Assembly: GCA_963700755.1 (NCBI GenBank)
Contig: CAVOYW010000002.1
Coordinates: forward strand, 46,968-110,967
Direction of reading: 5' to 3'
Source of the DNA: an uncultured Acidimicrobiales bacterium
GTDB lineage: Bacteria > Actinomycetota > Acidimicrobiia > Acidimicrobiales > SZUA-35
Length of the DNA stretch: 64,000 nt
A program made the translations under genes and the position numbers. Shown piece after piece: positions 34,484 to 53,040 of the stretch (the stretch's first letter is position 1; every line of letters starts with the position of its first letter). The notes beneath the pieces are model-generated. The model ran no database searches, had not been told where the DNA came from, and saw nothing but the letters and a program-made list of their open reading frames with translations.

Positions 34484-35281
34484 ATGGAACCCGTTCGTTA
34501 CGTCGACCTGTTGAACCAGCGCTACCGCCAGCAGGGATTCCCGCCCTACGAGTGGACGGTCAACGAACCGACCGGGCTCACCCCGCTCACCAAGCCGCTG
34601 GCCGAATGCCGGGTGTCGATGCTCACATCGGGCGGCGTCGCGCACTGCACGATGCCCACCTGGGACGCCACAGCCCGCAACGACTTCCGCCTCGACACCG
34701 TCGATCCGGCGGCGGCCGGCGCCGACTTCACGGTCAGCGACAGCTACTACGACACCGCCGACGCCGAGACCGACGTCAACACCGTGTTCCCGATCGACCG
34801 CCTCCGTGAACTCGAAGCCGACGGGACCATCGGTTCGGTGGCGCCCCGACTGTGGAGCGGTTTCATGGGACGGATCTACAAACGAACACACGTCACCGAC
34901 GTGGCGGCCCCGGCCCTGGCCGCCGAACTCCACGCCGACGAGGTCGACCTCGTCCTGCTGGTGCCCGCCTGACCTCTCGACCACCAGACAGTTGGTCTGG
35001 TCGCACGAGTGATCGAAGCCTCGGGTATCCCCACGGTGCTGGTCTCGACCGGCCGGGACCTCACCGAACTGGTCTGTCCACCCCGTTCGCTGTTCGTGAA
35101 CTTCCCGATGGGCAACCCGTTCGGCCCGCCGCACCAGCCCGACGTCCAGCGGGGAATCCTGCGCACGGCGCTCGAGCTGGCCGGCACCGACCTGGTCCCC
35201 GGCCAGATCGTCGACCTGCCCGATCAATGGCCCAGCGACTTCACCGACAAGGTGACCAAATCGCTCCTGGCCATGAGCTGA
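34484..35281 (+). CDS. GrdB/PrdB-family (glycine/sarcosine/betaine/D-proline reductase component B-like) protein with in-frame TGA at 34970-34972; candidate selenoprotein (265 codons)
   Basis: ORFs 34484..34972 and 35009..35281 share one frame. The junction reads LVLLVPA-TGA-PLDHQTVGLVARVIEASGIPTV. The N-terminal segment PLTKPLAECRVSMLTSGGV is typical of the family. Confidence 0.7.
34983..35001 (+). promoter_or_regulatory. Candidate bacterial SECIS stem-loop for the UGA at 34970
   Basis: The structure is A-CCAGAC / AGUUG / GUCUGG-U, a 7-bp stem. The loop G and U lie at +22 and +23 from the U of UGA. Confidence 0.5.
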
Positions 35282-35377
35282 GTCGTCTGTGGCGCGGTGC
35301 TGAGCTGTCGGGGTGCGCTGGCGCGCTGAGTCGTCGAGGCTGCGACACCGACCGGGGCGGCCGGGAGCCGACGCCGA

Positions 35378-36205
35378 TCAGCGGCCGTGGAAGGTCGGCT
35401 GGCGCTTCTCGGCGAAGGCCTTCGACGCCTCGAGATGGTCCTGGGTGCGAGCGGTGTGGCGGTGGTGGGTCGACTCGAGGTCGAGGGTTTCGCGGAGCTC
35501 GCCGGTGACCGACCGGTTGATGTTCTCCTTCATGTAGCGGTAGGCGATCGTCGGTCCGTTGGCGAGGCGCTCGGCGATCGAGCGCCAGGTGGTCTCGAGT
35601 TCGTCGGCCGGGACCACGGTGTTGACCAGGCCGAGCGACAACGCGGTGTCCATGTCGATGCGGTCCGACAGGTAGTAGAGCTCCTTGGCCTTGGCCGGGC
35701 CGACCAGTTGGGTCAGGAACCAGGTCCCGCCGTAGTCACCGGCCAACCCGACCTTGGCGAAAGCCGTGGTCATGACGGCGGTGTCGAGCGCAATCCGGAG
35801 GTCGCAGGCGAGGGCGAGCGAGAGCCCGGCACCGGCGGCCGCACCCGGGAGCACGGCCATGGTCGGTTTCGGCATCTCGAAGAGGGCTCCGGCGGTCGCT
35901 CGATGGCTCAGGCGCTGTTCGTGCACGCCCGCATCCCACGACGACGATCCGGCCGAGGCGCCTCCCCCTTCGGCGAAGCCCTTGACGTCACCGCCGGCAC
36001 AGAACGCTCCTCCGGCACCGGTGAGCACGACACAGCGGGCATCCTCGGCGGTTTCGATCTCGGCCAAGGCCCGACCGAGGCCCGACAGCATGGCGCCGGT
36101 CACGGCGTTGCGGCGCTCGGGGCGGTCGAAGGTGATCAGGGCGATGCCGTCGTCGTCGATCTCGGCTCGGAGGTTGTCGGTTCCGGTGTCGATGGTGCGG
36201 GCCAT
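35378..36205 (-). CDS. Enoyl-CoA hydratase/isomerase family
   Basis: ATG at 36205 follows GAGGAG. The motifs are ITFDRPERRNAV, VLTGAGGAFCAGGDV and PGAAAGAGLSLALACDLR. Confidence 0.9.
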   Translation of the reverse strand: MARTIDTGTDNLRAEIDDDGIALITFDRPERRNAVTGAMLSGLGRALAEIETAEDARCVVLTGAGGAFCAGGDVKGFAEGGGASAGSSSWDAGVHEQRLSHRATAGALFEMPKPTMAVLPGAAAGAGLSLALACDLRIALDTAVMTTAFAKVGLAGDYGGTWFLTQLVGPAKAKELYYLSDRIDMDTALSLGLVNTVVPADELETTWRSIAERLANGPTIAYRYMKENINRSVTGELRETLDLESTHHRHTARTQDHLEASKAFAEKRQPTFHGR

Positions 36206-36334
36206 GGTCGTACTCCTCGGGGCGTGCCGTCGTTCCGACGGCGTCGGGCTCGATGGCAGCCTGCTGGTCGAGGTGGCTTCGGTCAAGCCGACACCGGTCG
36301 GCCGCTTCGTTTCGCCGAGCCCGGTGTTCGGACC

Positions 36335-37141: not shown

Positions 37142-37259
37142 GTTGGTCGCTCGTCGGCCGCCTTCAGCACCGGATCAGTCTGCCACGTCGGCGTTCCCGG
37201 GCACGGCCGAGTCGGGCCCGGTAGGGTCGGTTTCATCGGCGAGCGAGGGGAAGACGCAC

Positions 37260-37961
37260 GTGGCAGACATCGAGCTGATGGACCGGGGCTATGCCGCCGT
37301 CATGGCGCAGATCGTGAAGACCGGCGCGGCGCCGCACTTCACCGAGCTGGCGGCCGAGCTCGGCATTCCGATCACCGACGCCCGGGATCTCATCCACGAA
37401 CTGGTCGCGGTCACGCCGGGGTGGACCCACCCGGGCACCGACTACCTGGCGTCGTTCCCGCCGTTCAACCTCCAGCCGACCCACTATCGCGTTTCGATCG
37501 ACGGTGAGCAGCGCTGGTACGCCCAGTGTGGTTTCGAGGCCATGGCCGTTCGCTGGCTCGTCCCGGGTCGTGAGGTTCGGATCGACGCCCCGTGCCTGTG
37601 CTGCGGCGAACCGATCTCGGTGACGATGTGCGACGAGGAGCTGTCGCTGATCGAACCGGCCGAGACCGTCGGCTACACCGCCTCGCAGGTCGGGGGTGAT
37701 GCGGCCAGTCGGCCGTTCCGCTGAGCGAACATGAACCTCTTCCGGTCGGAAGAACACGCACGCCGCTGGTCCGGATTCGACGAGTCGATGGCCTCGAGCC
37801 TGATGCCCGTCGCCGAGTGGGCCGACATCTTCTCGAACCCCTTCTTCCGGGAACGGGGCCGCCCCGACTACCTCTCGTGGACCCGTTCCGACGAAGGCGC
37901 CGCCGCGTTCACCGAACTCCGGGCCCGCCTGCCTCAACCCAGCCACCCCGACTCGGCCTGA
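37260..37961 (+). CDS. Organomercurial lyase (MerB)-like protein with in-frame TGA at 37722-37724; candidate selenoprotein
   Basis: ORFs 37140..37724 and 37731..37961 share one frame. RWYAQCGFEAMAV aligns with MerB YAWCALDTLIF, and APCLCCGEPISVTM aligns with SSHCAATGAPVSLTV. PFR-TGA-ANMNLFRSEEHARRW aligns with SFCCHVHFFASVPTAEDW. The start is GTG at 37260, with ATG 37278 as an alternative. Confidence 0.6.
37738..37753 (+). promoter_or_regulatory. Candidate bacterial SECIS stem-loop for the UGA at 37722
   Basis: The structure is UCUUCC / GGUC / GGAAGA, a 6-bp stem with a GGUC tetraloop at +23 to +26 from the U of UGA. From memory, the E. coli fdhF SECIS has GGUC at +22 to +25. Confidence 0.6.
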
Positions 37962-37965
37962 TTCG

Positions 37966-38001
37966 GAGAGTCTGAGCGACGGAACCGTCGCTCAGCCTCT
38001 C
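37966..38001. terminator. Long imperfect hairpin between convergent genes, followed on the plus strand by a G-rich tract to about 38058
   Basis: The structure is GAGAG-T-CTGAGCGAC / GGAACC / GTCGCTCAG-C-CTCTC, with 5 + 9 bp, one mismatch and a 6-nt loop. It is near-identical to the hairpin at 53063..53100. Confidence 0.55.
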
Positions 38002-38058
38002 GAGAACCCCGGGGAGAACCGGGGGAGGGGCGGGCGTGGGTTGGGGTCGGACGGTCGG

Positions 38059-39012
38059 TCAGGCTCGGGGCGAGTGGTTGCGTTGGCGGAACTCGTGCAC
38101 GGACAGGGAACGAAGCGTGGTCGGCTCGCTGGCCCGGACGGTGGCGCTGCGGGGTTGGCCGAGCATCGGGGCCAACTCGCCGATGTATTCGCCGGGGCCT
38201 CGCTGGGTCAGGACCGTCTCGGTGCCGTCGATGGCTTCGCGTACCACGTCGAGGCGGCCCTGCTCGACCAGATAGACCCGACTCCCCGTCGATCCCTGGC
38301 GGAACAGGATGTCGCCCGACGCGAGCTCGACGCTCGTCTCGGTGGAGTCGTCGTCGAGCGATGGAACGAGATCGATGGAGGTGTCGGCGATGGGCATCAG
38401 CCGGTCGTCGTGGGTCGACACCACCACGGTGTGGCCGGCGGTTGCGATGTCGCGCAGCAGCGAGATGATGCCCTCGGCCTGGACGTAGTCGAGGTTGGCG
38501 GTCGGTTCGTCGGCCAGCAGGAGCGGGGCCCCGCTGGCCAGACCTCGGGCGATTGCCACCCGCTGTTGCTGCCCCCCGGAGAGGTGACTCGGCCGGTGAT
38601 GGGCTCGGTCGCCGAGGCCGACCTGGTCGAGCAGGTTGGCCGCTCGTTGGCGGGCGGCTCCGGCCGACGTTCCGGTGAGGCGGAGCGGCATGGCGATGTT
38701 GTCGAGCGCCGAGAGCGAGGGGATGAGGTTGAACGCCTGGAAGACGAAGCCCACCGAGTTGCGGCGGTGCGACAACAGGGAGCGGTCGTCGAGGCCGGCG
38801 ATGTCGGTGCCGTCGACCATGATCTGTCCGGCCGTCGGTCGGAGGATGCCTCCGAGGCACGACAGCAGCGTGGTCTTGCCGCACCCGGATGGGCCGAGCA
38901 ACAGCGCCAGATCGCCGTCGCCGATGGAGGCGTTCAACCCGTCCAGGGGGCGGATCGGATAGCCGTTCGAGGTGTATTCGACGACGAGATCGCGTATCTG
39001 CAGGTTCGGCAT
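38059..39012 (-). CDS. ABC transporter ATP-binding protein (MacB/LolD-type) with a C-terminal cyclic-nucleotide-binding domain
   Basis: Walker A is GPSGCGKTTL, the signature is LSGGQQQRVAIARGL, and Walker B is LLLADEPTANLD. The C-terminal segment GEYIGELAPMLGQPRSATVRA is a cNMP-binding phosphate-binding cassette. ATG at 39012 lies 1 nt after the upstream stop. Confidence 0.9.
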   Translation of the reverse strand: MPNLQIRDLVVEYTSNGYPIRPLDGLNASIGDGDLALLLGPSGCGKTTLLSCLGGILRPTAGQIMVDGTDIAGLDDRSLLSHRRNSVGFVFQAFNLIPSLSALDNIAMPLRLTGTSAGAARQRAANLLDQVGLGDRAHHRPSHLSGGQQQRVAIARGLASGAPLLLADEPTANLDYVQAEGIISLLRDIATAGHTVVVSTHDDRLMPIADTSIDLVPSLDDDSTETSVELASGDILFRQGSTGSRVYLVEQGRLDVVREAIDGTETVLTQRGPGEYIGELAPMLGQPRSATVRASEPTTLRSLSVHEFRQRNHSPRA

Positions 39013-39013
39013 G

Positions 39014-41965
39014 TCAGGCTCCCGGCCCACCGAAGGCTGCGGCAGGATCGGTTCGTAGCGTTCGTCTGATGGCGCCGTAGCTGGCGGCGGCGGCCACGAT
39101 CATCGACACCGCGACCAGGACGATCCGGTCGCCGAGGTCGAGGTAGACACGAAGCGGGAAGACCGGGGCGAGCAGGGTCTGGACGATCAGGGCGATGATC
39201 GATGCCACCAATCCGATGACCAGGGCCTGGGCGGCCACGCCGATCGAGATCGGGCGGGACGCAACGCCCATGGCTCGGAGGACGGCGATGTCGCGCAGTC
39301 GATCGAGCGTGGCCAGGAAGACGACGGCTCCGATGATGAGCGAGGCAACGACCGCGAGGAGGACCTGCACGAGCCGCATCGTGGCGATCGGTCGTTCGAT
39401 CGGTCCAAGGGCGTCCTCGGCCACCTCGGCCGGCTCGAGTGATCGCAGGGTGGGCGGAAGTTCGGGGAGCTGGTCGACCACCAGGGCCGAGAGCAATGGT
39501 TGACCCTCGACGACGAGGTCGCGAGCTGCGTCGAGCGGAACGAACACCAGGGGCATCCCGGCGAAGACGGTCGTTTCGGCGACGACGCCGGTGACGGTGG
39601 CGTCGAGCGGGCCGAGTCGAACCCGGTCACCGACGCCGAAGGTCGAGTCTTCGGACACCACGACCTCGGCGGCACCCTGGGCCTGGCGACCGTCGATCAA
39701 GGGGGGAGCGTCGTCGGGCAGGTCGGCGTGGCCGACGAGGATCACGTCGAGATCGTTTGCGCCCTCGGCATCGGCCAGGCGATAGCGAGCGATCAGGACC
39801 CGCCCGAGGGCGTCGGCGCCGACCGGACCGAGGTCGGCCAGTGCCGAGTCGGCGAACGTGGCGCTCGAGGTGAAGATGCCGTCGGCCCCGGCCGGGACGA
39901 TCCAGTGCGAGCCGCCGAAGGACGAAACGGCCACGGTCGGTTCCCGGTTGAGTTGGTTGACGACGCCGGTCATCAGGAGGAGGAGGGCGAGCACGACGCT
40001 GGTGGCGGCAACGGCGACGACGAATCGGCGGGCCCGGAGCCGGAGGTCGGCCCATGCGAGCGACAGCGATCCGATGAGGGCGGCACCGGGCGATCGGTCG
40101 GGGGCCGGGCCGGTGTCGGTCGGTCTCGGTCGTGATCGCCCGGCTTCGAGTGCGGCGATCAGTGTCGGGTCGCCAACCGGCGGTTCGGCGCCGGCGAGGA
40201 ACGCGTCGATCAGGGCGGCCGATTGGGTTGCGCCGAGGGCGATCACCTGGCGGACCTTGCCGAATTCCAGAACGCTGAACTCCGACAGGTTGAGGTGCAC
40301 ATGACAGTCCACCGACCCGAGCGCCTCGACCCGGCGGCTGGCCGAGGCCACGGTGGTCGAACGCATCAGGGTGTCGAGCGGGTTCGGCACCCGGTTGGAT
40401 CGCATGCCCGGGATCAGGCGCCGAGCCAGCAGTCGCGGCCCCGACATCACGCGGGGGAGCGGTTCGGTCTTGCGGCCGTGGGGCGGGGCGAGGTCGACCA
40501 CGATCATCGAGCCCTCCCCGGTGAGAGCCCGCGCCCCCTCGACGGGGATGGCGTCGAAGACGGCGCCATCGATGTGAACGTGACCGTCGATGTCGACCGG
40601 CGGGAACACACCGGGGATCGAGATACTGGCGTAGATCGCGTCGGCCATCGGCCCGGTGGTGTGATTCACCGATTCGCCGAGGGTGAGATCGGTGGTGGCA
40701 ATCGAGAGCGGGATCCAGGTGTCGGTGATGTCACGGTCGCCGCACGCCTGCTGAATGCGGCGCCAGGCTCGCCCACCGGCGATGACCGCCCCCACCGGGA
40801 GCGTGTAGTCGAGCAGTTTGCGCATCGACCAGTCGGTCTTCTCGTCGAGGCCGTCGACCGCTCCCAGTACTCCCAGCCAGGCGGCGACGATCGAGCCGCC
40901 GCTCACCCCGGCCACGGCATCGACGGCGATTCCCCGATCGGCGAGGGCCTGGATCGTGCCGACGGCTCCGGCCGATCGCACACCCCCGGCGCCGATGGCC
41001 ATCGTGAGTGGACGACCAACGGCATGGCGAGCGACGCGGTCGAGGTCGGACGGCGTCCGCCGCCGCAGGTGGAGATGCCGGTCGACCTGGCGGCGCACGA
41101 GCCACTCCCGCGTCAGGCGGGGCCGGTCGGCGTCGGCCGGATGTACCAGCACGAGCAGGCGGACCGCGTTCGCCGCTCGGGGCACCGATTCGAGCAGCTG
41201 CTGTTCGGCCTGGCCGATGTCGGGGCCGTCGGCGGTGTCGAGAACGAACACGAGCCGGTCGGCAACCTTGGCGATGGCCCGGTTCCACTCGGGCCGGGCC
41301 GGGTCGCCGAGCAGCGTCACGCCTCGACTCCCGGCCGTTTCGGTGTCTTCCCGTCGGTGTTCGAAGTCGTCGAGCCAGCCGAGGGTTCCGGCCGAGGCGG
41401 CCTGTTCGAGCTCGGGGTGATCGGTGGGATCGATCACGACGTGCTGCCCGATCGACGCCGCCGCGGCGGCCAGAGCGCGTGCCTCGCCCATCACGGTCGA
41501 GTCCAACGGAACGAAGGCCACGACCTCGGTCGGCCCGCCGAGGTCGTCGGCGCCTCGGGTCAGGACGGCGTGCATGATGGCCATGGCTACGTCGGGTTGT
41601 GCGGCCATGAGCGAGATCAGCCACTCCCGGTCGAGCACGGCCAGTTCGGTGCGGCGAGCGGCCCGCATTCGGGCCCGGCGCACCCCGACCTCGAGCAGGG
41701 CCGCTTCGCCGATCAGTTCGCCGGGCCCGTGGAGCCCGATTCGTTGTTCGACACCGTTGCCGTCGATCCGGCTGGCGTGGATCCGGCCCCGGACGACGAC
41801 CCAGGCCGAGTGGCCGGAGTCGCCCACTTCGCAGAGCAGTTCCCCGGCATCGAGCTCGTGGGTGGTCAAGGCCGAGAGGTCGGAATGCCGACCCGCGCCC
41901 GGCAGCGCCCGCTCGAGGGCATCACGCAACAGGGCATCGGGGTCGGCGTCGGGCATGCAGGTCAT
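39014..41965 (-). CDS. Fusion protein: cNMP-binding domain, patatin-like phospholipase (NTE-like) and MacB/FtsX-type ABC permease
   Basis: The N-terminal cNMP-binding segment is GELIGEAALL...RRARMRA. The patatin motifs are GAGGVRSAG (GxGxxG), GVSGGS (GxSxG) and IDGAVFD (the catalytic Asp). The C-terminus has one TM helix, a large loop and three TM helices, with an FtsX-type AVLRAMGVASRPI segment. Confidence 0.85.
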   Translation of the reverse strand: MTCMPDADPDALLRDALERALPGAGRHSDLSALTTHELDAGELLCEVGDSGHSAWVVVRGRIHASRIDGNGVEQRIGLHGPGELIGEAALLEVGVRRARMRAARRTELAVLDREWLISLMAAQPDVAMAIMHAVLTRGADDLGGPTEVVAFVPLDSTVMGEARALAAAAASIGQHVVIDPTDHPELEQAASAGTLGWLDDFEHRREDTETAGSRGVTLLGDPARPEWNRAIAKVADRLVFVLDTADGPDIGQAEQQLLESVPRAANAVRLLVLVHPADADRPRLTREWLVRRQVDRHLHLRRRTPSDLDRVARHAVGRPLTMAIGAGGVRSAGAVGTIQALADRGIAVDAVAGVSGGSIVAAWLGVLGAVDGLDEKTDWSMRKLLDYTLPVGAVIAGGRAWRRIQQACGDRDITDTWIPLSIATTDLTLGESVNHTTGPMADAIYASISIPGVFPPVDIDGHVHIDGAVFDAIPVEGARALTGEGSMIVVDLAPPHGRKTEPLPRVMSGPRLLARRLIPGMRSNRVPNPLDTLMRSTTVASASRRVEALGSVDCHVHLNLSEFSVLEFGKVRQVIALGATQSAALIDAFLAGAEPPVGDPTLIAALEAGRSRPRPTDTGPAPDRSPGAALIGSLSLAWADLRLRARRFVVAVAATSVVLALLLLMTGVVNQLNREPTVAVSSFGGSHWIVPAGADGIFTSSATFADSALADLGPVGADALGRVLIARYRLADAEGANDLDVILVGHADLPDDAPPLIDGRQAQGAAEVVVSEDSTFGVGDRVRLGPLDATVTGVVAETTVFAGMPLVFVPLDAARDLVVEGQPLLSALVVDQLPELPPTLRSLEPAEVAEDALGPIERPIATMRLVQVLLAVVASLIIGAVVFLATLDRLRDIAVLRAMGVASRPISIGVAAQALVIGLVASIIALIVQTLLAPVFPLRVYLDLGDRIVLVAVSMIVAAAASYGAIRRTLRTDPAAAFGGPGA

Positions 41966-42064
41966 GTCAATGTCCTGGTGAGCGTCATGTCAAGTCGTCG
42001 CAGAGCGCATGAGGTTCCTCGTCTCGCGGGCCCCTCTGTCGGTCCCGGTCTCACGGTAGGTGGC

Positions 42065-42085
42065 GCGCTGTCAGTGCGCTGTCAG
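42065..42085. promoter_or_regulatory. Direct repeat GCGCTGTCAG-T-GCGCTGTCAG with 11-bp phasing, in the divergent promoter region
   Basis: Read directly from the sequence. It lies 100 bp upstream of ATG 41965(-) and about 230 bp upstream of 42313(+). Confidence 0.35.
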
Positions 42086-42128
42086 ACCGGGAACGCGGGC
42101 CTTCGGCGGGGCCGCTCGGCGCCGGCGG

Positions 42129-42146
42129 CTGACAGCAGAGTGTCAG
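42129..42146. promoter_or_regulatory. Inverted repeat CTGACA-N6-TGTCAG
   Basis: Read directly from the sequence. It uses the same hexamer as the direct repeats at 42065-42085. Confidence 0.3.
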
Positions 42147-42312
42147 CGTCGTCCGTACCGTCTGCAGAACGGCGACAATCGGCGGTGACCCGATACGCCG
42201 GCCGACCCCGCCCGAGCAGCACGGACGCGTTGCAGACCGACTGCAGACGGCATTTCGTACGGTCGGACGAGAACGACGTGCAACACTGTTCGACAAGCCC
42301 TGGGGGGTGGCG

Positions 42313-45300: not shown

Positions 45301-47616
45301 AGCGGCTCCGGCGGAGCCTCGTCGGGGTCGGGGTGTTGGCGATCATGGCCCTGCTGGCCGGCGGATTCGCCTTCCAGCAGTGGGGCAGCGCGGGCGCTCG
45401 GGCCGACGAGGCGGCCGAGGCCCGTGCCGCGGCCGAGACCAGGCGTCTGATCTCCGATGCCGGACAGTTGGCGCCCACCAATCGGCGCGTGGCGCTGCTG
45501 CTCGCTGCCGAGGGGTACCGGCGTGACCCCGGCCCAGCCGCCCTCGGTGGGCTGCAAGCGGTGCTCACCGACTCGACCGAGTTCCTCGGATTCCTGGCCG
45601 GCGACATCTCGTTCAACGACATCGCCTGGACCGGCAACGGCGATCTCGTCGGCACCCACTCGACCGGGGTGACATTGCTGTCGCCCGAAGGGGAACGGCT
45701 CCTCGAGATCCCGTTCTCGGGCGCACGGTTGCTGGCGGTGAGCAGCGACGACACCCTCGTCGCCGTGTCCGGACGCGACTCGACGGTGCGGGTCTTCGAC
45801 CTCCGCACCGGCGAACCGGCAACGGAGCCGCTGGTGCACGGTGCGGCGGTCACCAGCATGGCGTTCAGCGACACCGGAGGCCGGTTCGCCACCGGGGACT
45901 GGGCCGGCGACGTGCGGGTCTTCGACGACCGTTTCGAGCTGGTCCAGCAGATCGCCGCCCATCACGACGCCGGGCTCGAGCTGGATCCCGACAATCTACC
46001 GGAGGGGGTCGAACCACCGTTGGCCCACGACCCGCGGAGCTTCAATCTCGGTGTCGTCGATGTCGCGCTCGACATCGGATGGGCGCACGGTGGCGTCGGT
46101 CGGCGGTCAGGTCGTTCGCGCCTGGGATGTCGAGACGCTCGATCTGCTCGTCGATCGGCCACTGAGCCGGCTCACGGCTGATGGCGGGGAGGTCGCCATC
46201 GCTCCGACCGCGGTCGGATTCCTCGATGTCGATGGACGCGAGGTGATCGGCGCCGCCTCGTTGGCCTCGGTCCAGTTGGTGTCGCCCGATTCCGGCGAGC
46301 CGATCGATCGCTGGCCATTCGCCGGTGGGACACCAGGATTCCTTCGTGTCGAGACCACGACCAGCGTGGCCTTCGGTTCGGACATGGTGGCAACGCTGAG
46401 CGCCGATGGGCGAGTGCGGACCGCAGCGCCGGAACCCGATGACGCGACGATCTTCGACAGTCAGCTGACCGGTGAGCTGTCGCTCGACCTCGACGAGGAA
46501 CGAGGAAGGATCGTGGTGGCGGGGCCGGAGGGGGCCATGCGGTTGTCGCTCAACGGCGCCGGACTGATCTCGCGTTCGGTGCCCACAGGAGGGCTCTACG
46601 AGTTCTTCGTCTCCAACGACGGCCAGACCGTCCTCGGCTCCACGGTCGACGAACTCCCCTCGACGATGTGGCGGCTGGTCGGCGACGAGTACCGGGTCGC
46701 GCCGATCAGCGGTCCGACCGTGCACTTCGCCTTCACCGGGATGCCTGGCGGTCTGGGGATCGATCTCTCGACACTCATGATGCAGGAACGGGATCCGGTC
46801 ACCTTCGAGCCGTTCGGACCGGTCTACGGTCCCCACCGGACGTCGGAGGTCCTGACCTCGCCCGATGGGCGGTGGCTGGCGCTCTCGGTCGACCCTCCGG
46901 GTGACGTCGTCGGAGCACGGGTGTACGAGCGTTCGACCGGCGAGGTCGCCGCCGATCTGGACGAGGTCCTCGTCGACCCGAAGGACGCCATCCGGTCTCT
47001 CGGGTTCAGCCCCGACAGCAACCGAATGGTGGTCACGTCCATGGCAGGGGCAGCCCGGGTTTATGACACGGCGACGTGGAAGCCACTGGAACCCATGCTC
47101 AGCGGGGGAGGAGGAGCGGTGGTCGGAGCGGCCTTCACCCCCGACGGGAAGCACCTGGTGACCGCATCGATCGACGGGACCATCACCGTGCGAGACCCCG
47201 CAACGTTCCAACCCGACGGTCTGGCGATGCTCGGAAACACCGGTGCGGTCGAGGGGCAGGCCGTCGGGTCCCTTTTCAGTCCGGACGGCCACTGGATGGT
47301 GACGACCATGGACGGCGAGGCCAGGCTCTGGGACCTCGCCCAGCGTGTCGTGGTCGGAAGGCCGTTTCCGCACAACGGTGAGGCCAACCCCATGGCATCG
47401 GCCAACGCCCGCTACGTCCTGACCCACCTGGATGGGCGGACGGTCGTGTGGGAACTCGATCTCGATCGATGGCCGGAGATCGCCTGCCGGGCCGCCGGCC
47501 GGAACCTGACGATCGCCGAATGGGAGCAGTACGGCCCGGCCGGCGAGCCCTACATCGCGACGTGCCCGCAGTGGCCGTCACCGGACCAGATCGACGACAA
47601 CGGAGGTGCATCATGA
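42313..47616 (+). pseudogene. Giant SARP(BTAD)-Ser/Thr kinase-nSTAND-type P-loop NTPase-TM-WD40/beta-propeller protein, interrupted by two 1-nt frameshifts (about 43209 and about 46072)
   Basis: The N-terminus MEVRVLGPLEV...BTAD (LALYRCGRQIEALRHFQ) is SARP-type. The kinase starts at GEGSFGTIHRA...VAIKV in frame 1 and continues as FVRRFETEAQL...HRDVKPANIL...DFGIA in the frame of ORF 43269. The NTPase segment is NPYKGLRAFQEADSQDFHGRD...VVGASGSGKSS. The TM helix is LVGVGVLAIMALLAGGFAF. The WD-like blades continue after 46072 in the frame of ORF 45841 (SDGRTVASVGGQVVRAWDV). Confidence 0.85.
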
Positions 47617-48266: not shown

Positions 48267-49849
48267 TGACCGGCGTGGCCGCACCCCCGCTCGACGCTCG
48301 ACCGCAGTTGCGGCTCGGTCGGTCGTCGTATCCGGTGGTGTTGCCGCGCCTGACCGACACCCGGCTCCACGTGGCGTCGGTCATCGTGTCGCTCCACGTC
48401 CTGGGCCAGCTCGTGCTGGGATTCCGGGTCTCGGTACCCCAGATCCTGGCCGCGATCTTGAGCTGCGCCCTGGCCGAGATGATCATCGCGTTCCGTCGGG
48501 AGCGAAGCATCGTGTGGCCGGCCAGCGCCATGCTGACCGGCAGCGGTGTCGGTCTGATCCTGCGTGACGCGTCGACCGAGGCCGGCGAGCACTGGACGTT
48601 TCGCCATTGGTGGCTGTTCGCCGGGATCGCCCTGTTCTCGCTGGCCACCAAGTACGCCATTCGCTGGCGCGGGTCCCACGTCTTCAACCCGTCGAACCTC
48701 GGCCTGGTCGTCGCCTTCATCGTCCTGGGGAGCGACCGGATCGAACCCCTCGACTTCTGGTGGGGACCGTTCAGCGTCTGGATGTTGCTGGCCTACTGGC
48801 TGATCGTTTCCGGCGGTGTTCTCGTGACCGAACGCCTCGGCCTGCTCGAGCTGGCCGGCGCCTTCTGGACCACGTTTGCACTCTGCATGGCAGCACTGTC
48901 GGCGTCGGGGCACTGCATCACGGCTCCGTGGTCGGCCTCGGCGGTGTGCGGCGGCCGATTCTGGTGGACCATCGTGACGTCACCCGAGCTCCTGGTCTTC
49001 GTGTTCTTCATGATCACCGACCCGCGCACCGTGCCGTCGAGTCGGGTCGGACGTGTCGCCTTCGGCATCGGCGTCGCCGTGGTCAGTTCGCTCCTGATCG
49101 CACCGCAGACCACCGAGTTCGGGGCCAAGGTGGGTCTCCTCGGAGGGCTGGTCGTGATGTGCGCCATCCCCCCGGTCATGCAGGTACTCGGCGTGCCGTC
49201 GGCCTGGGAACGGTCACGGCTGCGCACCGCCGGCGACCGGCACCTCATCGTCCGATCGTTCGCCGGAGTTGTCGTGCTCGGTCTCGTCCTGCCCGCCGTC
49301 GCCGCGGCCGGGGCCCCGGCCCGGTCGGCCGTCTCGGCCGCGGTGATCGAACCGCGGCCCGATCCCCGTGAGTACGTCTTCGATGTCGACGAAGCCCGCC
49401 TCGGCGTCATCACCGTCGATCCCGAGGTCGAGGTCCTCGACCCCGACCTGGTCGGACCCGGATCCCGGCTCGCTGCCATCGAACTGCTCCGCGGCCTCGA
49501 TGTCGAAGTCCTCGCCTTCGAACGTGGCGACGCCACCGTGTTGAGTGCCGTCGACCACGGCGGTCGACTCGTCGAGATGCGAGATCGATTGGCCCGGTAC
49601 CAGCCGGGTGACACGATCCCGAGCGACCACCGTTTCGACACCATGGAGCTCTCCGTCGTTCGGAGCCGAGGGCAGGGTGGGCTCCGGCTCGCCATCACCG
49701 GACGGGGTAGCATCGAGGAACGGGTTCTCGACGAGAGCGGTGGCATCCTCGCTCGGCATCGGGCCGGGTTCTCCGCCCAATTCGTCCTGAGGGCGGGCGA
49801 CGATGGACGATGGTTCATCGTCGAAGAACGCGCACAGGAAGATGGATGA
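48263..49849 (+). CDS. Polytopic membrane protein (RnfD/NqrB-like or UnbU-like core) with a soluble C-terminal domain
   Basis: The start overlaps the upstream stop (GTGATG). There are about 8 TM helices, with HVFNPSNLGL and FFMITDPRTVP motifs that resemble the RnfD/NqrB family (from memory). The C-terminal 170 aa are soluble. Confidence 0.8.
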   Translation: MMTGVAAPPLDARPQLRLGRSSYPVVLPRLTDTRLHVASVIVSLHVLGQLVLGFRVSVPQILAAILSCALAEMIIAFRRERSIVWPASAMLTGSGVGLILRDASTEAGEHWTFRHWWLFAGIALFSLATKYAIRWRGSHVFNPSNLGLVVAFIVLGSDRIEPLDFWWGPFSVWMLLAYWLIVSGGVLVTERLGLLELAGAFWTTFALCMAALSASGHCITAPWSASAVCGGRFWWTIVTSPELLVFVFFMITDPRTVPSSRVGRVAFGIGVAVVSSLLIAPQTTEFGAKVGLLGGLVVMCAIPPVMQVLGVPSAWERSRLRTAGDRHLIVRSFAGVVVLGLVLPAVAAAGAPARSAVSAAVIEPRPDPREYVFDVDEARLGVITVDPEVEVLDPDLVGPGSRLAAIELLRGLDVEVLAFERGDATVLSAVDHGGRLVEMRDRLARYQPGDTIPSDHRFDTMELSVVRSRGQGGLRLAITGRGSIEERVLDESGGILARHRAGFSAQFVLRAGDDGRWFIVEERAQEDG

Positions 49850-49853
49850 TCCG

Positions 49854-50906
49854 ATGAAGGAGGGTGGCGCCGTGGAATCCAGGACGAACGACGAACTCGT
49901 CGATGGGCGTGGCTCGCCCCGGCCTCGGCAACCAGCACCGACTACGCCGGCGCCGATGCCGATCGCCCGGCCGGCCGTCGTGGTTCGTTCGCCCGGCCGG
50001 ACACCGCTCCATCTCATGGTGACCGAACCGATCGAGATCGGACGCGAATGCGCCGGACTCCTCCTGGATGACCCGTTGATCTCTCGTCGCCACCTCGAGG
50101 TCCGCGCCGACGGAGACCGGGTCGTCGTGACCGATCTCGGGAGCACCAACGGCACCACGATCAGCGGCCGTCCGCTGACGGGGTCCAGTGTGATCGGGGT
50201 GGCCGACACCGTGAACTTCGGCGATTCGACCATCCACCTCGTCGTCGACGTCAAGGCCACCATGGCACCGGGACTGGTGAAGCCATCGTCGTCGGTGCCG
50301 GTGGACCTGCGGCGGACCTCGATCGACATCGTGGCCGAGGCCTACTCCGTCGATCGGCCCGCCGTCGACGAGGTGCCGGTCTCGCACGGAACGACCACCA
50401 TCGTGTTCAGCGACATCGAATCGTCGACAGCACGAGCCGAGGAGCTCGGGGACCAACGCTGGTTCGAGCTGCTGTCCACCCACAACGACGTGGTGCGTCG
50501 CCGGGTCGAATCCTTCCACGGCAAGGAGATCAAGGCCCAGGGCGACGGGTTCATGTTGTCGTTCCCGTCGGCCCGCGGTGCCGTGCAGTGCATGCTCGCC
50601 GTGCAACAGGACCTCGACGAACACAACCGTCGTCACCCCGATCGCCCCATCCGGGTCCGGGTCGGGATCCACACCGGCGAGGCCATCGTCGACGGCGACG
50701 GTGACCTGTTCGGAAAGCACGTGATCCTGGCGGCCCGGATCGCCAACGAGGCCGTCGGCGGTGAGATCCTCGTGTCGTCGCTGGTGCGCCAGATCATCGA
50801 AGCCCACGGCGACATGGAATTCGGTGAGGGCCGGGTCACTCAGCTGAAGGGGCTCGCCGGGACCTACACCGTGTTCCCGATCCTCCGCCGCTCGACCGAA
50901 AGCTGA
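49854..50906 (+). CDS. FHA domain-containing class III adenylate/guanylate cyclase
   Basis: The FHA segment is IEIGRECAGLLLDDPLISRRHLEV...VTDLGSTNGTTISG. The cyclase segment is TIVFSDIESSTARAE...KAQGDGFMLSF...VRVGIHTGEAI...FGKHVILAARI. The start is ambiguous: ATG at 49803, 49842 or 49854. Confidence 0.85.
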   Translation: MKEGGAVESRTNDELVDGRGSPRPRQPAPTTPAPMPIARPAVVVRSPGRTPLHLMVTEPIEIGRECAGLLLDDPLISRRHLEVRADGDRVVVTDLGSTNGTTISGRPLTGSSVIGVADTVNFGDSTIHLVVDVKATMAPGLVKPSSSVPVDLRRTSIDIVAEAYSVDRPAVDEVPVSHGTTTIVFSDIESSTARAEELGDQRWFELLSTHNDVVRRRVESFHGKEIKAQGDGFMLSFPSARGAVQCMLAVQQDLDEHNRRHPDRPIRVRVGIHTGEAIVDGDGDLFGKHVILAARIANEAVGGEILVSSLVRQIIEAHGDMEFGEGRVTQLKGLAGTYTVFPILRRSTES

Positions 50907-50936
50907 CCGGTTCCGGCGATCCCGACAGCCCGCCGA

Positions 50937-51977
50937 TCAGGAGCCGGTCGTCGCCGGAAGCTCGACCCGCGGATCGACCACGACCACGTGCCATTCCCGC
51001 AGGGAGATCGGACCCCAGCGCAGGATCTTCCGGCCGCCGATGCGCACGACCCAGCGCAGTTGCGTCTTCGCCCCGCTGAAGCTCGGTGCTGCGTCGATCG
51101 GGACCTCGAAGGTGGCGACACCCGAGTCGTCGAAGCGCAGCTGGTGCTGGTACGCCTCGAAGGTCTCGAATTGGCCGGCGGTCACCCGCCCACCGCGCGC
51201 CTCGAACGACCTGCGGTTCGCGCCCGTCACCAGCCCGCCCGCAGAAGGGATCCCCGACGTGTAGATTCCCATGTAGCTCTCGACCCCCAAAAAGACGACG
51301 GGCCGCAGTCGACCGCCCACGTGTCGAACGGTGACCCGATCGCCCGGGCGGACCACGGTCGGCTCGACGACGAGATCCGGCGATCGCGGTGTTCGGGGCC
51401 ACACCGTGCGGAGCGCCAGGAAAGCGGCCGCGAGCGGAACGATCGAGACCACGAGGGCTCCGATCGGAAGCGCAGTCGGAGGCGGGTTCTCCACGTCGGC
51501 CATCAGGGCGTAGAGGCCGAAGGCGGCGAACATGGCGAAGAACGACAGTCCCATGAAGATCGAGAGGACGTGCTCGCCGATGAGGCTTCGAAGCCTCGGG
51601 GGGCGTCCTCCGGCCGTCGCCAGGATCTCGGGGCTCGGGCCCGGCGGATGCGAATTGTCGATCTCGATCGGGGCGGACTGTTCGCCGACGAGCGCGGCGG
51701 CCTTGCCTCTGGTCACCACGACCCAGGTGATGCCGACCCGCTTGGCCTTCTGCGTCGGCAGGGCATCGTCGGGCACCTGGATCTGGAATCGACCGGTGGC
51801 CGAGTCGGACGTCGTGCGTCCGTACGGAACGCCTGTGACCGGGAGCGTGACCGTGCCGTTGGATTCGCGGCGTTCCAGCCAGACATCCACCGAGCGCGGG
51901 TCGCCGTCGTCGTCGACGATCGATCCGTTGACGAAATCGCCGGCCCGTACATGCGTCGTATCGAGTTCGATGGCCAT
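50937..51977 (-). CDS. Hypothetical membrane protein (two central TM helices between two beta-rich halves)
   Basis: ATG at 51977 follows GGAGGG. The TM helices are VLSIFMGLSFFAMFAAFGLYAL and IGALVVSIVPLAAAFLAL. I recognise no family. Confidence 0.7.
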   Translation of the reverse strand: MAIELDTTHVRAGDFVNGSIVDDDGDPRSVDVWLERRESNGTVTLPVTGVPYGRTTSDSATGRFQIQVPDDALPTQKAKRVGITWVVVTRGKAAALVGEQSAPIEIDNSHPPGPSPEILATAGGRPPRLRSLIGEHVLSIFMGLSFFAMFAAFGLYALMADVENPPPTALPIGALVVSIVPLAAAFLALRTVWPRTPRSPDLVVEPTVVRPGDRVTVRHVGGRLRPVVFLGVESYMGIYTSGIPSAGGLVTGANRRSFEARGGRVTAGQFETFEAYQHQLRFDDSGVATFEVPIDAAPSFSGAKTQLRWVVRIGGRKILRWGPISLREWHVVVVDPRVELPATTGS

Positions 51978-52041
51978 CGGTTCCCTCCAAGGCTCGACGA
52001 ACCGTAGCCGCGGTGACCCGACGCGAGCTTGGGCGAGCGGG

Positions 52042-53040
52042 TCAGAGCGGACGAAGGTGATCGGGGACGTCGATCCCGAGCTCGGTCGCCAGCCCCATGC
52101 CGGGCTCGTTGACCCGGACACCGATGGCATCGAGGAGCCGGTTCATCATCTCGAAGTTGCCGGCACAACCGGCGGCGCGAACGACCCCGTCGTCTCCGGT
52201 CACTCGCCGCAGGGCCTCACGAGCGCCCGGCATCTCATCCGCGTCTCGGAGAACGGCTGCGTCGGCGAAGGCCAGCAGCTCGCGTCCGCCGGCCAGGAGG
52301 GGATCGGCGAAGGGATCGATGATCGCCCGGAGATCGACCGGCCGATCGGTTCGTTTGCCGCTCACACGGAGCATGCCGGCATGGGCCAGCAGTCAATAGA
52401 AGCACTCGTTGAGCCGCGACGTCCGCGCCGCAACGAGTTCCATCTGCGTTCGGTGCAGACCCCGGTCGATGTCCATGTCGACCATCTGTTGCATCGACAG
52501 GTAGAGCGTGGTGTGGACGTCGTGCATGGCCTCGTGCTCGGAGGGCACGAGCGAGAGTGCGGACGGAGGCCAGGCCACGCCGACGGTCGGTACCCATCCG
52601 CCATCGATGGCGGCATCGGCTGCGATGGCGCCGGTCGGCGGTTCGGTGCTGCCCGCGGGGACCTCCACCGGTGGAACGCCGAGCGCGAAACAGAACGTGT
52701 CGACGGCGGTCAATCGGGCCACGATCCCCAGGACCTCGACATAGGCCGCAGCGTCGATGCCTGCGGCGTCGAGTTCGGTCAGCCATTCGGGTCGAATCGT
52801 GTGCGACGCGACGGTGAGGCGCCACACGAGCTCACCCGGGGGATCCTCTGGTGGGTCAGCGGGACGGCCAAGGGCGAACTCTCGGCTCAACGTCGCCACC
52901 TCGCCGCGCTGGAGCCCGGTGAGCGACGGACCCGGCGCAGCGATCGTGGCCGCGGTCCGCTCCAGCAAGGCCGCTTCCGGACCGGGGATCGACGGTTGCA
53001 TCACCGAACCATAGGCCGATGCCCCGGTCCTCCGCCGCAC
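52042..53040 (-). CDS. AhpD/carboxymuconolactone-decarboxylase (CMD)-like protein with in-frame TGA (plus-strand 52393-52395) giving a C-F-Y-U motif; candidate selenoprotein
   Basis: ORFs 52393..53040 and 52042..52374 share one frame. The junction reads ELVAARTSRLNECFY-TGA-LLAHAGM, which matches the CMD signature E-x(7-9)-N-x-C-x-x-C-x(3)-H with the second Cys replaced. The start is 53040 or ATG 53001. Confidence 0.65.
52357..52380 (-). promoter_or_regulatory. Possible SECIS stem-loop for the UGA at 52395 (weaker than the other two)
   Basis: The minus-strand RNA is GCC-GGCAU-GCUC / CGUGU / GAGC-GGC, with loop G and U at +29 and +30. An alternative hairpin, GCUGG/CCCAUG/CCGGC, lies at +6 to +21. 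Confidence 0.3.

What the first reader, a model, noticed from the sequence alone, without database searches (positions are those of the whole stretch)
34484..53040. Three Cys-column UGA codons within 18 kb imply an active, relatively rich selenocysteine-decoding trait whose machinery lies outside the window
Three unrelated families (GrdB/PrdB-like, MerB-like and CMD/AhpD-like) each carry exactly one in-frame TGA at a catalytic or redox Cys column. Each is followed by a hairpin 13-25 nt downstream. Random nonsense mutations would not be expected to hit three such columns.

Global TGA reassignment is excluded. TGA is the ordinary terminator of many well-supported genes here, for example at 7405-7407, 8884-8886, 19016-19018 and 47614-47616. 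No selA, selB, selD or tRNA-Sec is present in this window. None of the classic Sec enzymes such as formate dehydrogenase is present either. If this is real, the density suggests a larger than usual selenoproteome for a high-GC actinobacterium. Standard annotation would call all three genes pseudogenes or split ORFs.
Basis: inference. Interest (0 to 1): 0.72.

Follow-up and report, generated by a model that had tools for sequence, protein, structure and literature searches.

The report
Three genuine selenocysteine genes in Acidimicrobiales
Three neighbouring genes that look broken by a stop codon are real selenoprotein genes of an Acidimicrobiales bacterium; two belong to catalogued families, and the third, a MerB-like enzyme, appears to be missing from current catalogues.

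Summary
In-frame TGAs lie at 34970-34972 (+), 37722-37724 (+) and 52393-52395 (-), in a PrdB/GrdB-like, a MerB-like and an AhpD-related gene.

- **Same codon in relatives.** TGA sits at the same column in 79 of 80 genome loci for the PrdB-like gene, in 58 of 58 metagenome loci for the MerB-like gene, and in all 9 DNA loci read for the AhpD-related gene (7 distinct).
- **Cys counterparts.** Each has a homologue with Cys at that column: L070, P0273, and the CxxC of solved AhpD-core proteins.
- **Translation continues.** Substitutions downstream of each TGA fall mainly on third codon positions.
- **SECIS-like hairpins.** Each TGA is followed by a conserved hairpin with GU in its apical loop, starting 21-28 nt from the U of UGA.

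The window's closest relative found is an Acidimicrobiales MAG, 89-96% identical in protein. Published tables report SelA/B/D and 7-15 selenoproteins in cultured members of this order.

The AhpD-related gene passes NCBIfam NF041238. The PrdB-like gene belongs to a class abundant in marine metagenomes. The MerB-like gene is not SaoL and matches no curated selenoprotein model.

The Sec machinery is absent from the window and could not be located elsewhere. Overall novelty is modest.

The parts
34484..35281 (+). PrdB/GrdB-like selenoprotein gene, 265 aa, Sec163, motif VPA-U-PLDHQTVGLV
   Evidence: Translation. Pfam GRDB 39.6 bits against a cut-off of 22. TIGR04483 PrdB 131 bits, below its cut-off of 300. 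Full-length matches in 80 genome loci, 58-93% identical.
34970..34972 (+). UGA read as selenocysteine (PrdB-like gene)
   Evidence: 79 of 80 orthologous loci have TGA at this column; L070 has TGC. Against L006, changes downstream fall 7/5/29 on codon positions 1/2/3.
34983..35001 (+). SECIS-like hairpin: 7-bp stem, apical loop N-G-U-N-G (AGUUG here) starting 21 nt from the U of UGA
   Evidence: RNAalifold consensus over 79 unique sequences. Pair 18-28 is GC 69, AU 6, GU 1, AC 3 (Fisher p = 2e-6). Loop positions 21 and 24 covary: CG 50, AU 16, GC 7, other 6. GU is invariant in the Sec forms.
37260..37961 (+). MerB-like selenoprotein gene, 233 aa, Sec155; Cys90 and Glu93 align to MerB Cys96 and Asp99
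   Evidence: Translation. Pfam MerB 70.4 bits against 27. Alignment to solved MerB. The window's database entry P0001 stops at 154 aa.
37722..37724 (+). UGA read as selenocysteine (MerB-like gene), at the column of MerB Cys159
   Evidence: TGA in 57 of 58 related loci by tblastn. The remaining locus, L143, also has it once aligned by motif. The Cys homologue P0273 is 44% identical over 210 aa, with Cys at this column. Of 110 representative proteins matching the C-terminal 78 aa, nearly all are short orphan ORFs starting two codons after the TGA.
37738..37753 (+). SECIS-like hairpin UCUUCC-GGUC-GGAAGA, loop starting 23 nt from the U of UGA
   Evidence: Codons +5 to +9 (CTC TTC CGG TCG GAA) show almost no synonymous variation in 53 unique sequences whose proteins are 42-93% identical to the window's. 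Flanking 4- to 6-fold degenerate codons show 1.3-2.0 bits.
52042..53040 (-). AhpD-related (CFYU) selenoprotein gene, 332 aa from the GTG start, Sec216, motif NECFY-U-LLAH
   Evidence: Translation. NCBIfam NF041238 AhpD_rel_CFYUT 223 bits against 175. The window's database entry P0121 stops at 215 aa.
52393..52395 (-). UGA read as selenocysteine (AhpD-related gene), at the second Cys of the CxxC motif
   Evidence: TGA at the same column in L004, L144-L151. About 120 database homologues cover only about 62% of the query. In every relative looked up, a 108-111 aa ORF follows in frame 18 nt later. The position aligns to CFYC of 2pfx and 3c1l. Against L144, changes downstream fall 8/3/29 on codon positions 1/2/3.
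52357..52376 (-). SECIS-like hairpin: 5-bp stem, one bulge and 2 outer pairs, apical loop CGUGU starting 28 nt from the U of UGA
   Evidence: The same hairpin and CGUGN loop occur in all 10 sequences (8 distinct), including L004, which is only 32% identical in protein. The outer pairs change from GC/GC to GG/CC.

Best explanation
The window comes from an Acidimicrobiales bacterium (class Acidimicrobiia, Actinomycetota) that decodes UGA as selenocysteine at defined sites. It carries three unlinked, stand-alone selenoprotein genes.

**How decoding works (inferred).** In each gene the ribosome meets UGA followed by a short mRNA hairpin inside the coding sequence. The apical loop of that hairpin presents G-U 21-28 nt downstream of the U of UGA. 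By the standard bacterial mechanism, SelB bound to GTP and Sec-tRNA(Sec) binds this hairpin and delivers Sec. tRNA(Sec) would be made by SelA using selenophosphate from SelD. Translation then continues for 78-116 more codons. TGA elsewhere remains the normal terminator.

**The proteins.**
1. A PrdB/GrdB-fold protein with Sec in VPA-U-PLDHQ. It has no resolving Cys and no PrdA partner, so it is not D-proline reductase. Its substrate is unknown.
2. A MerB-fold protein whose active-site triad is Cys90 / Glu93 / Sec155, in place of MerB's Cys96 / Asp99 / Cys159. It most likely cleaves a carbon-metal or similar bond with Sec as the attacking or metal-holding residue. It lies outside any mer operon.
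3. An AhpD-related protein with C-F-Y-U, a thiol/selenol redox pair like the CxxC of AhpD.

**Shown here:** the positions of the TGAs, their conservation, the Sec/Cys pairs, purifying selection downstream, and conservation and covariation of the hairpins.

**Inferred, not shown:** selA, selB, selC and selD elsewhere in this genome, actual selenium incorporation, and the biochemical functions.
For: **TGA fixed at one column across wide divergence.**
- PrdB-like: 79 of 80 loci from several phyla.
- MerB-like: 58 of 58 loci, down to 42% protein identity.
- AhpD-related: 9 of 9 relatives' DNA loci (7 distinct), plus about 120 truncated database homologues.

**Cys counterparts.** L070 has TGC. P0273 and P0299 have Cys. 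Solved AhpD-core proteins have CFYC. The MerB-like Sec aligns to MerB Cys159.

**Coding constraint downstream of TGA.** Differences by codon position are 7/5/29, 8/4/16 and 8/3/29.

**RNA constraint.**
- Compensatory GC-to-AU change and loop covariation in the PrdB-like hairpin.
- Near-zero synonymous variation over the MerB-like hairpin.
- The AhpD-related hairpin is kept at 32% protein identity.
- The only Cys-form PrdB-like locus has lost the loop GU.

**Family and lineage context.**
- NF041238 is passed above its cut-off.
- TGA ends almost all other genes in the window.
- The lineage is Acidimicrobiales.
- Published tables give Ilumatobacter and Microthrix SelA/B/D with 15, 10 and 7 selenoproteins (PMC5029168).
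- A preprint reports the machinery in all 84 complete Actinomarina genomes.
Against: - No selA, selB, selD or tRNA-Sec is in the window, nor in 1.66 Mb of related loci. The machinery is undemonstrated for this genome.
- Hairpin folding energies are no better than shuffled controls.
- The assembly carries at least two frameshifts, in xylA near 18.6 kb and in the kinase gene near 43.2 kb. It is not error-free, though these are indels, not substitutions.
- No selenium incorporation or enzyme activity has been measured for any of the three families as far as I could find.
Confidence: 0.92

Rival explanations
1. The three genes are pseudogenes or assembly errors. Random nonsense substitutions, or sequencing mistakes, turned Cys codons into TGA in a decaying or error-prone genome.
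For: Two other genes in the window are frameshifted: xylA near 18.6 kb and the BTAD-kinase-STAND-WD40 gene near 43.2 kb. Hairpin energies are unremarkable.
Against: The same TGA occurs in nearly every relative examined, from independent assemblies. Downstream codons are under purifying selection. The defects seen elsewhere in the window are indels, not substitutions.
Confidence: 0.01
2. UGA is read through or reassigned without selenium, for example as Trp or Gly, or by near-cognate suppression to Cys or Trp. The full-length proteins would then be made without Sec.
For: Two JGI gene calls, P0002 and P0003, translate the TGA as W. The machinery was not found in the sequence available.
Against: TGA terminates almost all other genes in the window. 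The recoded column is a catalytic or redox Cys in homologues, not a Trp or Gly column. Each site carries a conserved GU-loop hairpin at SECIS spacing. The W in the JGI calls is most simply a choice of translation table.
Confidence: 0.04
3. Each locus is expressed as two separate polypeptides: an N-terminal fragment ending at TGA, and a small downstream ORF starting at a nearby Met. The two would work as a split protein.
For: Gene callers consistently find a downstream ORF starting 2 codons (MerB-like) or 6 codons (AhpD-related) after the TGA.
Against: The two pieces are always in frame and only 6 or 18 nt apart. The Met is not universal: L004 has Leu. Cys-form homologues are single chains. The split would fall in the middle of the active-site motif.
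Confidence: 0.03

Closest known systems
Marine 'proline reductase PrdB' selenoproteins (pfam07355) of the Sargasso Sea and GOS surveys (PMC1088965, PMC2398784)
   Same: PrdB-sized GRDB-fold protein with Sec at the same column. Overwhelmingly Sec rather than Cys: 42 Sec against 1 Cys in the Sargasso Sea, 79 against 1 here. Found in aerobic environmental bacteria without a glycine or proline reductase operon.
   Different: The published motif is UxxC. The window's subfamily has U-P-L-D, with Asp in place of the resolving Cys. The UxxC form (UPVCHQ) is present as a separate paralogue in six loci. The score is below the TIGR04483 PrdB cut-off.
AhpD-related (seleno)protein NF041238 (AhpD_rel_CFYUT), called 'hypothetical protein 1' in the Sargasso Sea study
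   Same: Passes the curated model (223 bits against 175). Has the name-giving C-F-Y-U motif, a CxxU redox pair.
   Different: The residue after Sec is Leu (CFYULL), not Thr as in the model's name. L004 has CFYUTT. Otherwise an ordinary member.
MerB-like selenoproteins: SaoL (NF040728; Haft & Gwadz 2023) and 'organic mercuric lyase MerB2' (Peng et al. 2016, supplement)
   Same: MerB fold with Sec in the C-terminal active-site segment. Truncated in databases well before the true C-terminus.
   Different: SaoL has a Cys-Sec (CU) dipeptide and sits in the multi-gene SAO operon of anaerobes. The window's protein has F-R-U with Sec at the Cys159 column. It scores 26.8 bits against SaoL's cut-off of 140. 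It has no conserved neighbours and comes from Acidimicrobiia.
Organomercurial lyase MerB (PDB 1s6l, 3f0o and others)
   Same: Pfam MerB domain. The first catalytic Cys is kept, and the second catalytic position is occupied by Sec.
   Different: Glu replaces Asp99. Scores are far below the NCBIfam MerB cut-offs: 38 against 193 and 34 against 200. There is an extra C-terminal tail of about 50 aa. No merA, merR, merT or merP appeared among the families matched in neighbours of nine further loci, nor among the window's own neighbours.
Bacterial SECIS element as in E. coli fdhF (my own knowledge of the GGUC apical loop; general model in PMC1088965)
   Same: A hairpin inside the coding sequence just after UGA, with conserved G(U) in the apical loop. 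The MerB-like hairpin has a GGUC loop, and seven of the 79 PrdB-like sequences have GGUCG.
   Different: SelB binding and function were not tested here. No Rfam family reached its gathering score at these sites.

Membership tests
Bacterial selenoprotein gene (UGA-Sec with SECIS) | In-frame UGA at a column occupied by Cys in homologues | tested here: met
   L070 has TGC. P0273 has Cys, and the position aligns to MerB Cys159. CFYC in 2pfx and 3c1l.
Bacterial selenoprotein gene (UGA-Sec with SECIS) | The protein-coding frame is conserved downstream of the UGA | tested here: met
   Full-length tblastn matches across the TGA. Third-position bias of changes downstream.
Bacterial selenoprotein gene (UGA-Sec with SECIS) | Hairpin just downstream of the UGA with conserved G(U) in the apical loop; I recall the published spacing as about 16-37 nt | tested here: met
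   Loops start at nt 21, 23 and 28 from the U of UGA. They are conserved, show covariation or suppressed synonymous change. Folding energy alone is not significant.
Bacterial selenoprotein gene (UGA-Sec with SECIS) | selA, selB, selD and tRNA-Sec present in the same genome | not testable with these tools
   Absent from the window. The window's own contig is not retrievable. Only literature on related genera is available.
Bacterial selenoprotein gene (UGA-Sec with SECIS) | Selenium demonstrably incorporated | not testable with these tools
   Needs 75Se labelling or mass spectrometry.
NF041238 AhpD_rel_CFYUT (seleno)protein | Score at or above the curated cut-off, with the CFYU motif | tested here: met
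   223 bits against 175; motif NECFY-U-LLAH.
D-proline reductase PrdB (TIGR04483) | Score at or above the equivalog cut-off of 300 bits | tested here: not met
   131 bits.
D-proline reductase PrdB (TIGR04483) | UxxC motif and a proline reductase gene context | tested here: not met
   The motif is U-P-L-D. No neighbour family is shared by more than 5 of 87 neighbouring ORFs from 22 loci, and no reductase-operon family appears among the families listed.
Pfam GRDB (PF07355) | Gathering score of 22 bits | tested here: met
   39.6 bits, covering profile positions 188-345.
Organomercurial lyase MerB (NF033555 / NF009710) | Score at or above the curated cut-offs of 200 and 193 bits | tested here: not met
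   34 and 38 bits. The Pfam MerB domain is met at 70.4 against 27.
Organomercurial lyase MerB (NF033555 / NF009710) | Catalytic Cys96, Asp99 and Cys159 | tested here: inconclusive
   By alignment to 1s6l and 3f2g the residues are Cys90, Glu93 and Sec155. Same positions, but two of the three residues differ.
Organomercurial lyase MerB (NF033555 / NF009710) | Location in a mer operon (merA, merR, merT, merP) | tested here: not met
   The window's neighbours are PhyH, enoyl-CoA hydratase and an ABC ATPase. No mer-operon family appears among the families listed for neighbours in nine further loci.
SaoL MerB-like selenoprotein (NF040728) | Score at or above 140 bits, with a Cys-Sec dipeptide | tested here: not met
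   26.8 bits. The motif is F-R-U, not C-U.

The most novel reading that the evidence does not exclude
The MerB-like gene may represent a selenoprotein family not yet catalogued.

- It is almost always the Sec form. Of the 110 representative proteins (one per 50%-identity cluster) that match its C-terminal 78 aa, nearly all are orphan mini-ORFs.
- Only two Cys forms were seen.
- Four metagenome loci carry Sec at both catalytic Cys positions.
- It is found mainly in Acidimicrobiia and lies outside mer operons.
- Database entries are truncated and named 'organomercurial lyase' or 'hypothetical protein'.

If so, Sec-dependent carbon-metal bond chemistry would extend to aerobic soil and marine Actinomycetota. 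A MerB active site built from two selenols would be unprecedented.
Probability: 0.5. Interest if true: 0.55.

Novelty: new member of a known kind. Interest (0 to 1): 0.4.

Why it matters
**Annotation.** All three genes, and hundreds of their relatives in public databases, are stored as truncated or split ORFs. This includes NCBI MAG records of the AhpD-related family, for which a curated model (NF041238) exists. Correct read-through calls would repair them.

**Biology.** The window adds to evidence that Acidimicrobiales are the selenoprotein-rich branch of Actinomycetota. The MerB-like family looks undescribed, and its active site uses Sec at the Cys159 position, and in some relatives at the Cys96 position too. 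That makes it a tractable target for asking what Sec adds to carbon-metal bond cleavage.

**Limits.** None of this changes the known mechanism of Sec decoding.

Tried and rejected
- **Retrieving the window's own contig to look for sel genes.** The look-up of encoding contigs found no record for a window SDR protein or for P0001. P0001 comes from a 144,672-bp contig that could not be reached.
- **tblastn with E. coli SelA, SelB and SelD, and ARAGORN, on all fetched loci (1.66 Mb).** The only hit, in L009, proved to be EF-Tu.
- **Folding energies against shuffled controls.** Not significant, so I turned to comparative tests instead.
- **Rfam.** No family other than tRNA-Gly reached its gathering score.
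- **Other in-frame TGA junctions.** Those at 7405, 12766, 29648 and 36335 are ordinary ends of one gene followed by an unrelated gene in the same frame.
- **Conserved gene neighbourhoods.**
  - MerB-like: none, and no mer genes.
  - PrdB-like: none, and no reductase partner. A methyltransferase occurs among 5 of the 87 neighbouring ORFs scanned.
- **Structure prediction of the full-length MerB-like protein.** I did not pursue it, since distances could not have been read out anyway.
- **Literature.** No description of this MerB-like Sec family turned up in the 2026 catalogue, the Haft preprint, the GOS paper or the deep-Sep paper. Haft & Tolstoy 2025 is not held.

Full report
**What is there**

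The window is 66-71% GC throughout. Codon-position GC statistics and Pfam scans give about 48 genes. Nearly all end in TGA.

Three genes in 34.4-53.1 kb contain one in-frame TGA each.

| Gene | Coordinates | TGA | Protein |
|---|---|---|---|
| PrdB/GrdB-like | 34484-35281 (+) | 34970-34972 | 265 aa, ...LVPA-U-PLDHQTVGLV... |
| MerB-like | 37260-37961 (+) | 37722-37724 | 233 aa, ...SRPFR-U-ANMNLFRSEEH... |
| AhpD-related | 53040-52042 (-) | 52395-52393 | 332 aa, ...NECFY-U-LLAH... |

Family scores:
- PrdB-like: Pfam GRDB 39.6 bits (cut-off 22). TIGR04483 PrdB 131 bits (cut-off 300, not reached).
- MerB-like: Pfam MerB 70.4 bits (cut-off 27). NCBIfam MerB models 34-38 bits (cut-offs 193-200). 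SaoL 26.8 bits (cut-off 140).
- AhpD-related: Pfam CMD 27.2 bits (cut-off 23). NCBIfam NF041238 'AhpD_rel_CFYUT, alkylhydroperoxidase-related (seleno)protein' 223 bits (cut-off 175, passed).

**Is it more than chance or error?**

*PrdB-like gene.* A scan of one genome per species returned 80 loci matching the protein end to end at 58-93% identity. They come from Acidimicrobiales, other Actinomycetota, Alpha-, Gamma- and Deltaproteobacteria, Myxococcota, Spirochaetales and others.
- 79 of the 80 have TGA at the same codon.
- One, L070 (Minwuia sp.), has TGC.

*MerB-like gene.* A metagenome scan returned 61 loci.
- All 58 that cover the site have TGA, at protein identities down to 42%.
- The first catalytic Cys column stays TGC or TGT in 55 loci.
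- In four loci (L107, L111, L112, L115) that column is also TGA.
- In the 5.8-billion-protein database, 117 of the best 120 homologues end at the TGA column, at 153-165 aa. The exceptions are P0002 and P0003, which read through the TGA as W, and P0095, which carries extra N-terminal sequence but also ends there.
- The C-terminal 78 aa, searched against 1.84 billion representative proteins, hit 110 of them (one per 50%-identity cluster). Nearly all are 50-120 aa orphan ORFs beginning at the Met two codons after the TGA.
- Two hits carry Cys at the Sec column. P0273 is a full-length 224-aa protein, 44% identical over 210 aa. P0299 has an unrelated-looking N-terminus.

*AhpD-related gene.*
- About 120 homologues cover only about 62% of the query.
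- In all nine DNA loci examined (seven distinct), TGA sits in C-F-[YF]-U.
- In every relative looked up, a 108-111 aa ORF follows in frame 18 nt later.

*Selection downstream of the TGA.* I compared the window with its closest relatives and counted differences by codon position (1/2/3) downstream of each TGA.
- PrdB-like: 7/5/29.
- MerB-like: 8/4/16.
- AhpD-related: 8/3/29.

The pattern upstream is the same. The sequence after the TGA is therefore translated and under purifying selection. Random nonsense mutation, sequencing error and global TGA reassignment are excluded.

**Cys columns**

- The PrdB-like Sec column holds Cys in L070. It holds Sec in a UxxC paralogue (UPVCHQTVSL) found in six loci.
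- The MerB-like Sec aligns to Cys159 of solved MerB. Cys90 aligns to Cys96, and Glu93 to Asp99.
- The AhpD-related Sec aligns to the second Cys of CFYC in the solved AhpD-core proteins 2pfx and 3c1l.

**The hairpins**

Taken singly, the downstream 60-mers fold no better than shuffles: z = -0.40, +0.75 and -0.18. Comparative analysis is decisive.

*PrdB-like.* 79 unique sequences share a 7-bp stem at nt 14-20 and 26-32 from the U of UGA, with a 5-nt loop N-G-U-N-G.
- The Gln codon (CAG or CAA) and the Leu codon (CTG or TTG) covary to keep a pair: GC 69, AU 6, GU 1, AC 3 (Fisher p = 2e-6).
- Loop positions 1 and 4 covary: C/G 50, A/U 16, G/C 7, other 6.
- The one Cys-form locus keeps the stem but has lost the loop GU, reading CGCCG. 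This is a single case.

*MerB-like.* The hairpin is (C)UCUUCC-GGUC-GGAAGA(G), with its loop at nt 23-26.
- Codons +5 to +9 are essentially fixed at the nucleotide level in 53 unique sequences: CTC 52/52, TTC 53/53, CGG 51/52, TCG 53/53, GAA 46/48.
- Neighbouring 4- to 6-fold degenerate codons show 1.3-2.0 bits of synonymous entropy.

*AhpD-related.* The hairpin is UGCUC-CGUGN-GAGCR plus two or three outer pairs, with its loop at nt 28-32.
- It recurs in all ten sequences (eight distinct), including L004 at 32% protein identity.
- The outer pairs change in a compensatory way.

All three hairpins put G-U at loop positions 2-3. [quoted passage not shown] I recall the GGUC loop of E. coli fdhF and the usual 16-37 nt spacing from my own knowledge.

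A window-wide scan asked for an in-frame TGA, such a hairpin, and coding-like third-position GC on both sides. It singles out these three sites. Two other sites reach similar third-position GC, 28492 (+) and 55495 (-). I dismissed both by eye as lying outside a real coding frame.

**Whose genome, and where is the machinery?**

The best relative is L006, an uncultured Acidimicrobiales MAG (MFD09964.bin.1.7). It is syntenic over the PrdB-like and MerB-like genes at 89-96% protein identity.

- The window has no tRNA-Sec. ARAGORN and Rfam find only a tRNA-Gly.
- There is no SelA, SelB or SelD match.
- None turned up in 1.66 Mb of related loci. An apparent SelB hit was EF-Tu.
- The window's own contig, 144,672 bp according to the entries for P0001 and P0121, could not be retrieved.
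- The machinery is therefore inferred, not shown.

Published data fit that inference.
- Peng et al. 2016 list SelD, SelA and SelB as present in Ilumatobacter coccineus, I. nonamiensis and Candidatus Microthrix parvicella.
- The same tables give those species 15, 10 and 7 selenoproteins, against about 1 in most Actinobacteria (PMC5029168 supplements).
- A 2026 preprint reports selA, selC, selD and a divergent selB in all 84 complete Actinomarina genomes.

**Function and context**

None of the three genes has a conserved neighbourhood.
- Only L006, among 80 loci, has the MerB-like gene near the PrdB-like gene.
- Neighbours of the MerB-like gene in nine further loci share no family in more than three of 67 ORFs. 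No mer-operon family appears among those listed.
- No neighbour family of the PrdB-like gene is shared by more than 5 of 87 ORFs from 22 loci. Those five are a methyltransferase. No PrdA-type or reductase partner appears among those listed.

So the PrdB-like protein is not D-proline reductase. It also has Asp where PrdB has the resolving Cys. The MerB-like protein is not a classical mercury-resistance enzyme.

The most likely roles, by homology, are these.
- AhpD-related: a thiol/selenol redox protein.
- MerB-like: a lyase with a Cys/Glu/Sec active site, acting on a carbon-metal or similar bond.
- PrdB-like: a GRDB-fold selenoenzyme of unknown substrate.

**Comparison with what is known**

- NF041238 is the 'hypothetical protein 1' of the Sargasso Sea study.
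- 'PrdB' (pfam07355) was the third most abundant Sargasso selenoprotein, with 42 Sec forms and 1 Cys form. It had 235 members in GOS.
- MerB-like selenoproteins are known as SaoL (CU motif, SAO operon) and 'MerB2'.
- The window's F-R-U family fails the SaoL model. I did not find it in the 2026 catalogue, the Haft preprint, the GOS paper or the deep-Sep paper.
- One relevant paper, Haft & Tolstoy 2025, is not held. The claim that the family is uncatalogued is therefore provisional.

**Verdict**

- Three bona fide selenoprotein genes lie in an order already known to be rich in selenoproteins.
- Two belong to catalogued families.
- The third is a probable new subfamily of a known kind, with double-Sec relatives.
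- Three sites in 18.6 kb should not be extrapolated to the whole genome. At 7-15 per genome one would expect far fewer, and the adjacency is not conserved beyond a close relative.

Noticed in passing
window 17566-19018 (+), frame change within about 18560-18700: A xylose-isomerase-like gene reads in one frame up to about 18.6 kb and continues in the next frame to its TGA stop at 19016-19018. This is a frameshift, either an assembly indel or a pseudogene. The FGGY sugar-kinase gene follows in the first frame with no stop between them, giving a spurious 961-aa ORF.
   Followed up: partly
window 42307-47616 (+), especially about 43210-43225 and 45840-46180: One very large gene (BTAD, Ser/Thr kinase, nSTAND1 NTPase, WD40) is spread over three reading frames. 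Inside the kinase domain the DNA reads GGTTCGTCC where GGTTTCGTCC would keep the frame. That suggests a 1-nt deletion in a T run, consistent with long-read assembly error.
   Followed up: partly
window 53107-53242: A G-rich imperfect tandem repeat (GGGGTGGGTGGGGCG..., periods 27, 45 and 72) fills the gap between the amidohydrolase gene and the start of the AhpD-related selenoprotein gene. It is C-rich on the coding strand of that gene.
   Followed up: no
window 6430-6532, 6712-6805, 12788-12882: Perfect (100%) short tandem repeats: a 14-mer x6.4 in an intergenic region, a 15-mer x6.3 encoding a repeated TGTVP at the N-terminus of a TetR regulator, and a 30-mer x3.2 just upstream of the PanE/ApbA domain.
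   Followed up: no
window 33256-34419 (+) versus L006 9793-10001: A PhyH-like ORF of 387 aa lies between the SDR gene and the PrdB-like gene in the window. It has no counterpart in the otherwise syntenic relative L006, where the two genes are only about 200 bp apart.
   Followed up: partly
L107 about 6250 and 6445; L111 294 and 489; L112 6265 and 6460; L115 472 and 667: Four metagenome relatives of the MerB-like gene have TGA at both catalytic Cys columns (the equivalents of Cys96 and Cys159). These would be double-selenocysteine active sites.
   Followed up: partly
L034, L059, L060, L063, L064, L080: A second PrdB-like selenoprotein paralogue (motif U-P-V-C-H-Q-T-V-S-L, 32-39% identical) lies within 10 kb of the UPLDHQ form in six loci. 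In L060 and L080 it is immediately adjacent.
   Followed up: no
P0002, P0003 (JGI gene calls): Two JGI 'hypothetical proteins' are full-length MerB-like sequences with W at the TGA positions. P0003 has W at both catalytic columns. They were apparently translated with a table that reads TGA as Trp.
   Followed up: no
window 38059-41965 (-), 49803-50906 (+), 60090-60767 (-): A concentration of cyclic-nucleotide signalling genes. They comprise an ABC ATPase with a cNMP-binding domain, a 983-aa protein combining cNMP-binding, patatin and FtsX permease domains, an FHA-domain adenylate/guanylate cyclase, and a Crp-type regulator.
   Followed up: no
L070 10484-10520: The only Cys-form (TGC) PrdB-like locus keeps the hairpin stem but has Val changed to Ala, turning the loop from CGUGG to CGCCG. 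The invariant GU is lost exactly where Sec decoding is no longer needed. This is a single case.
   Followed up: partly
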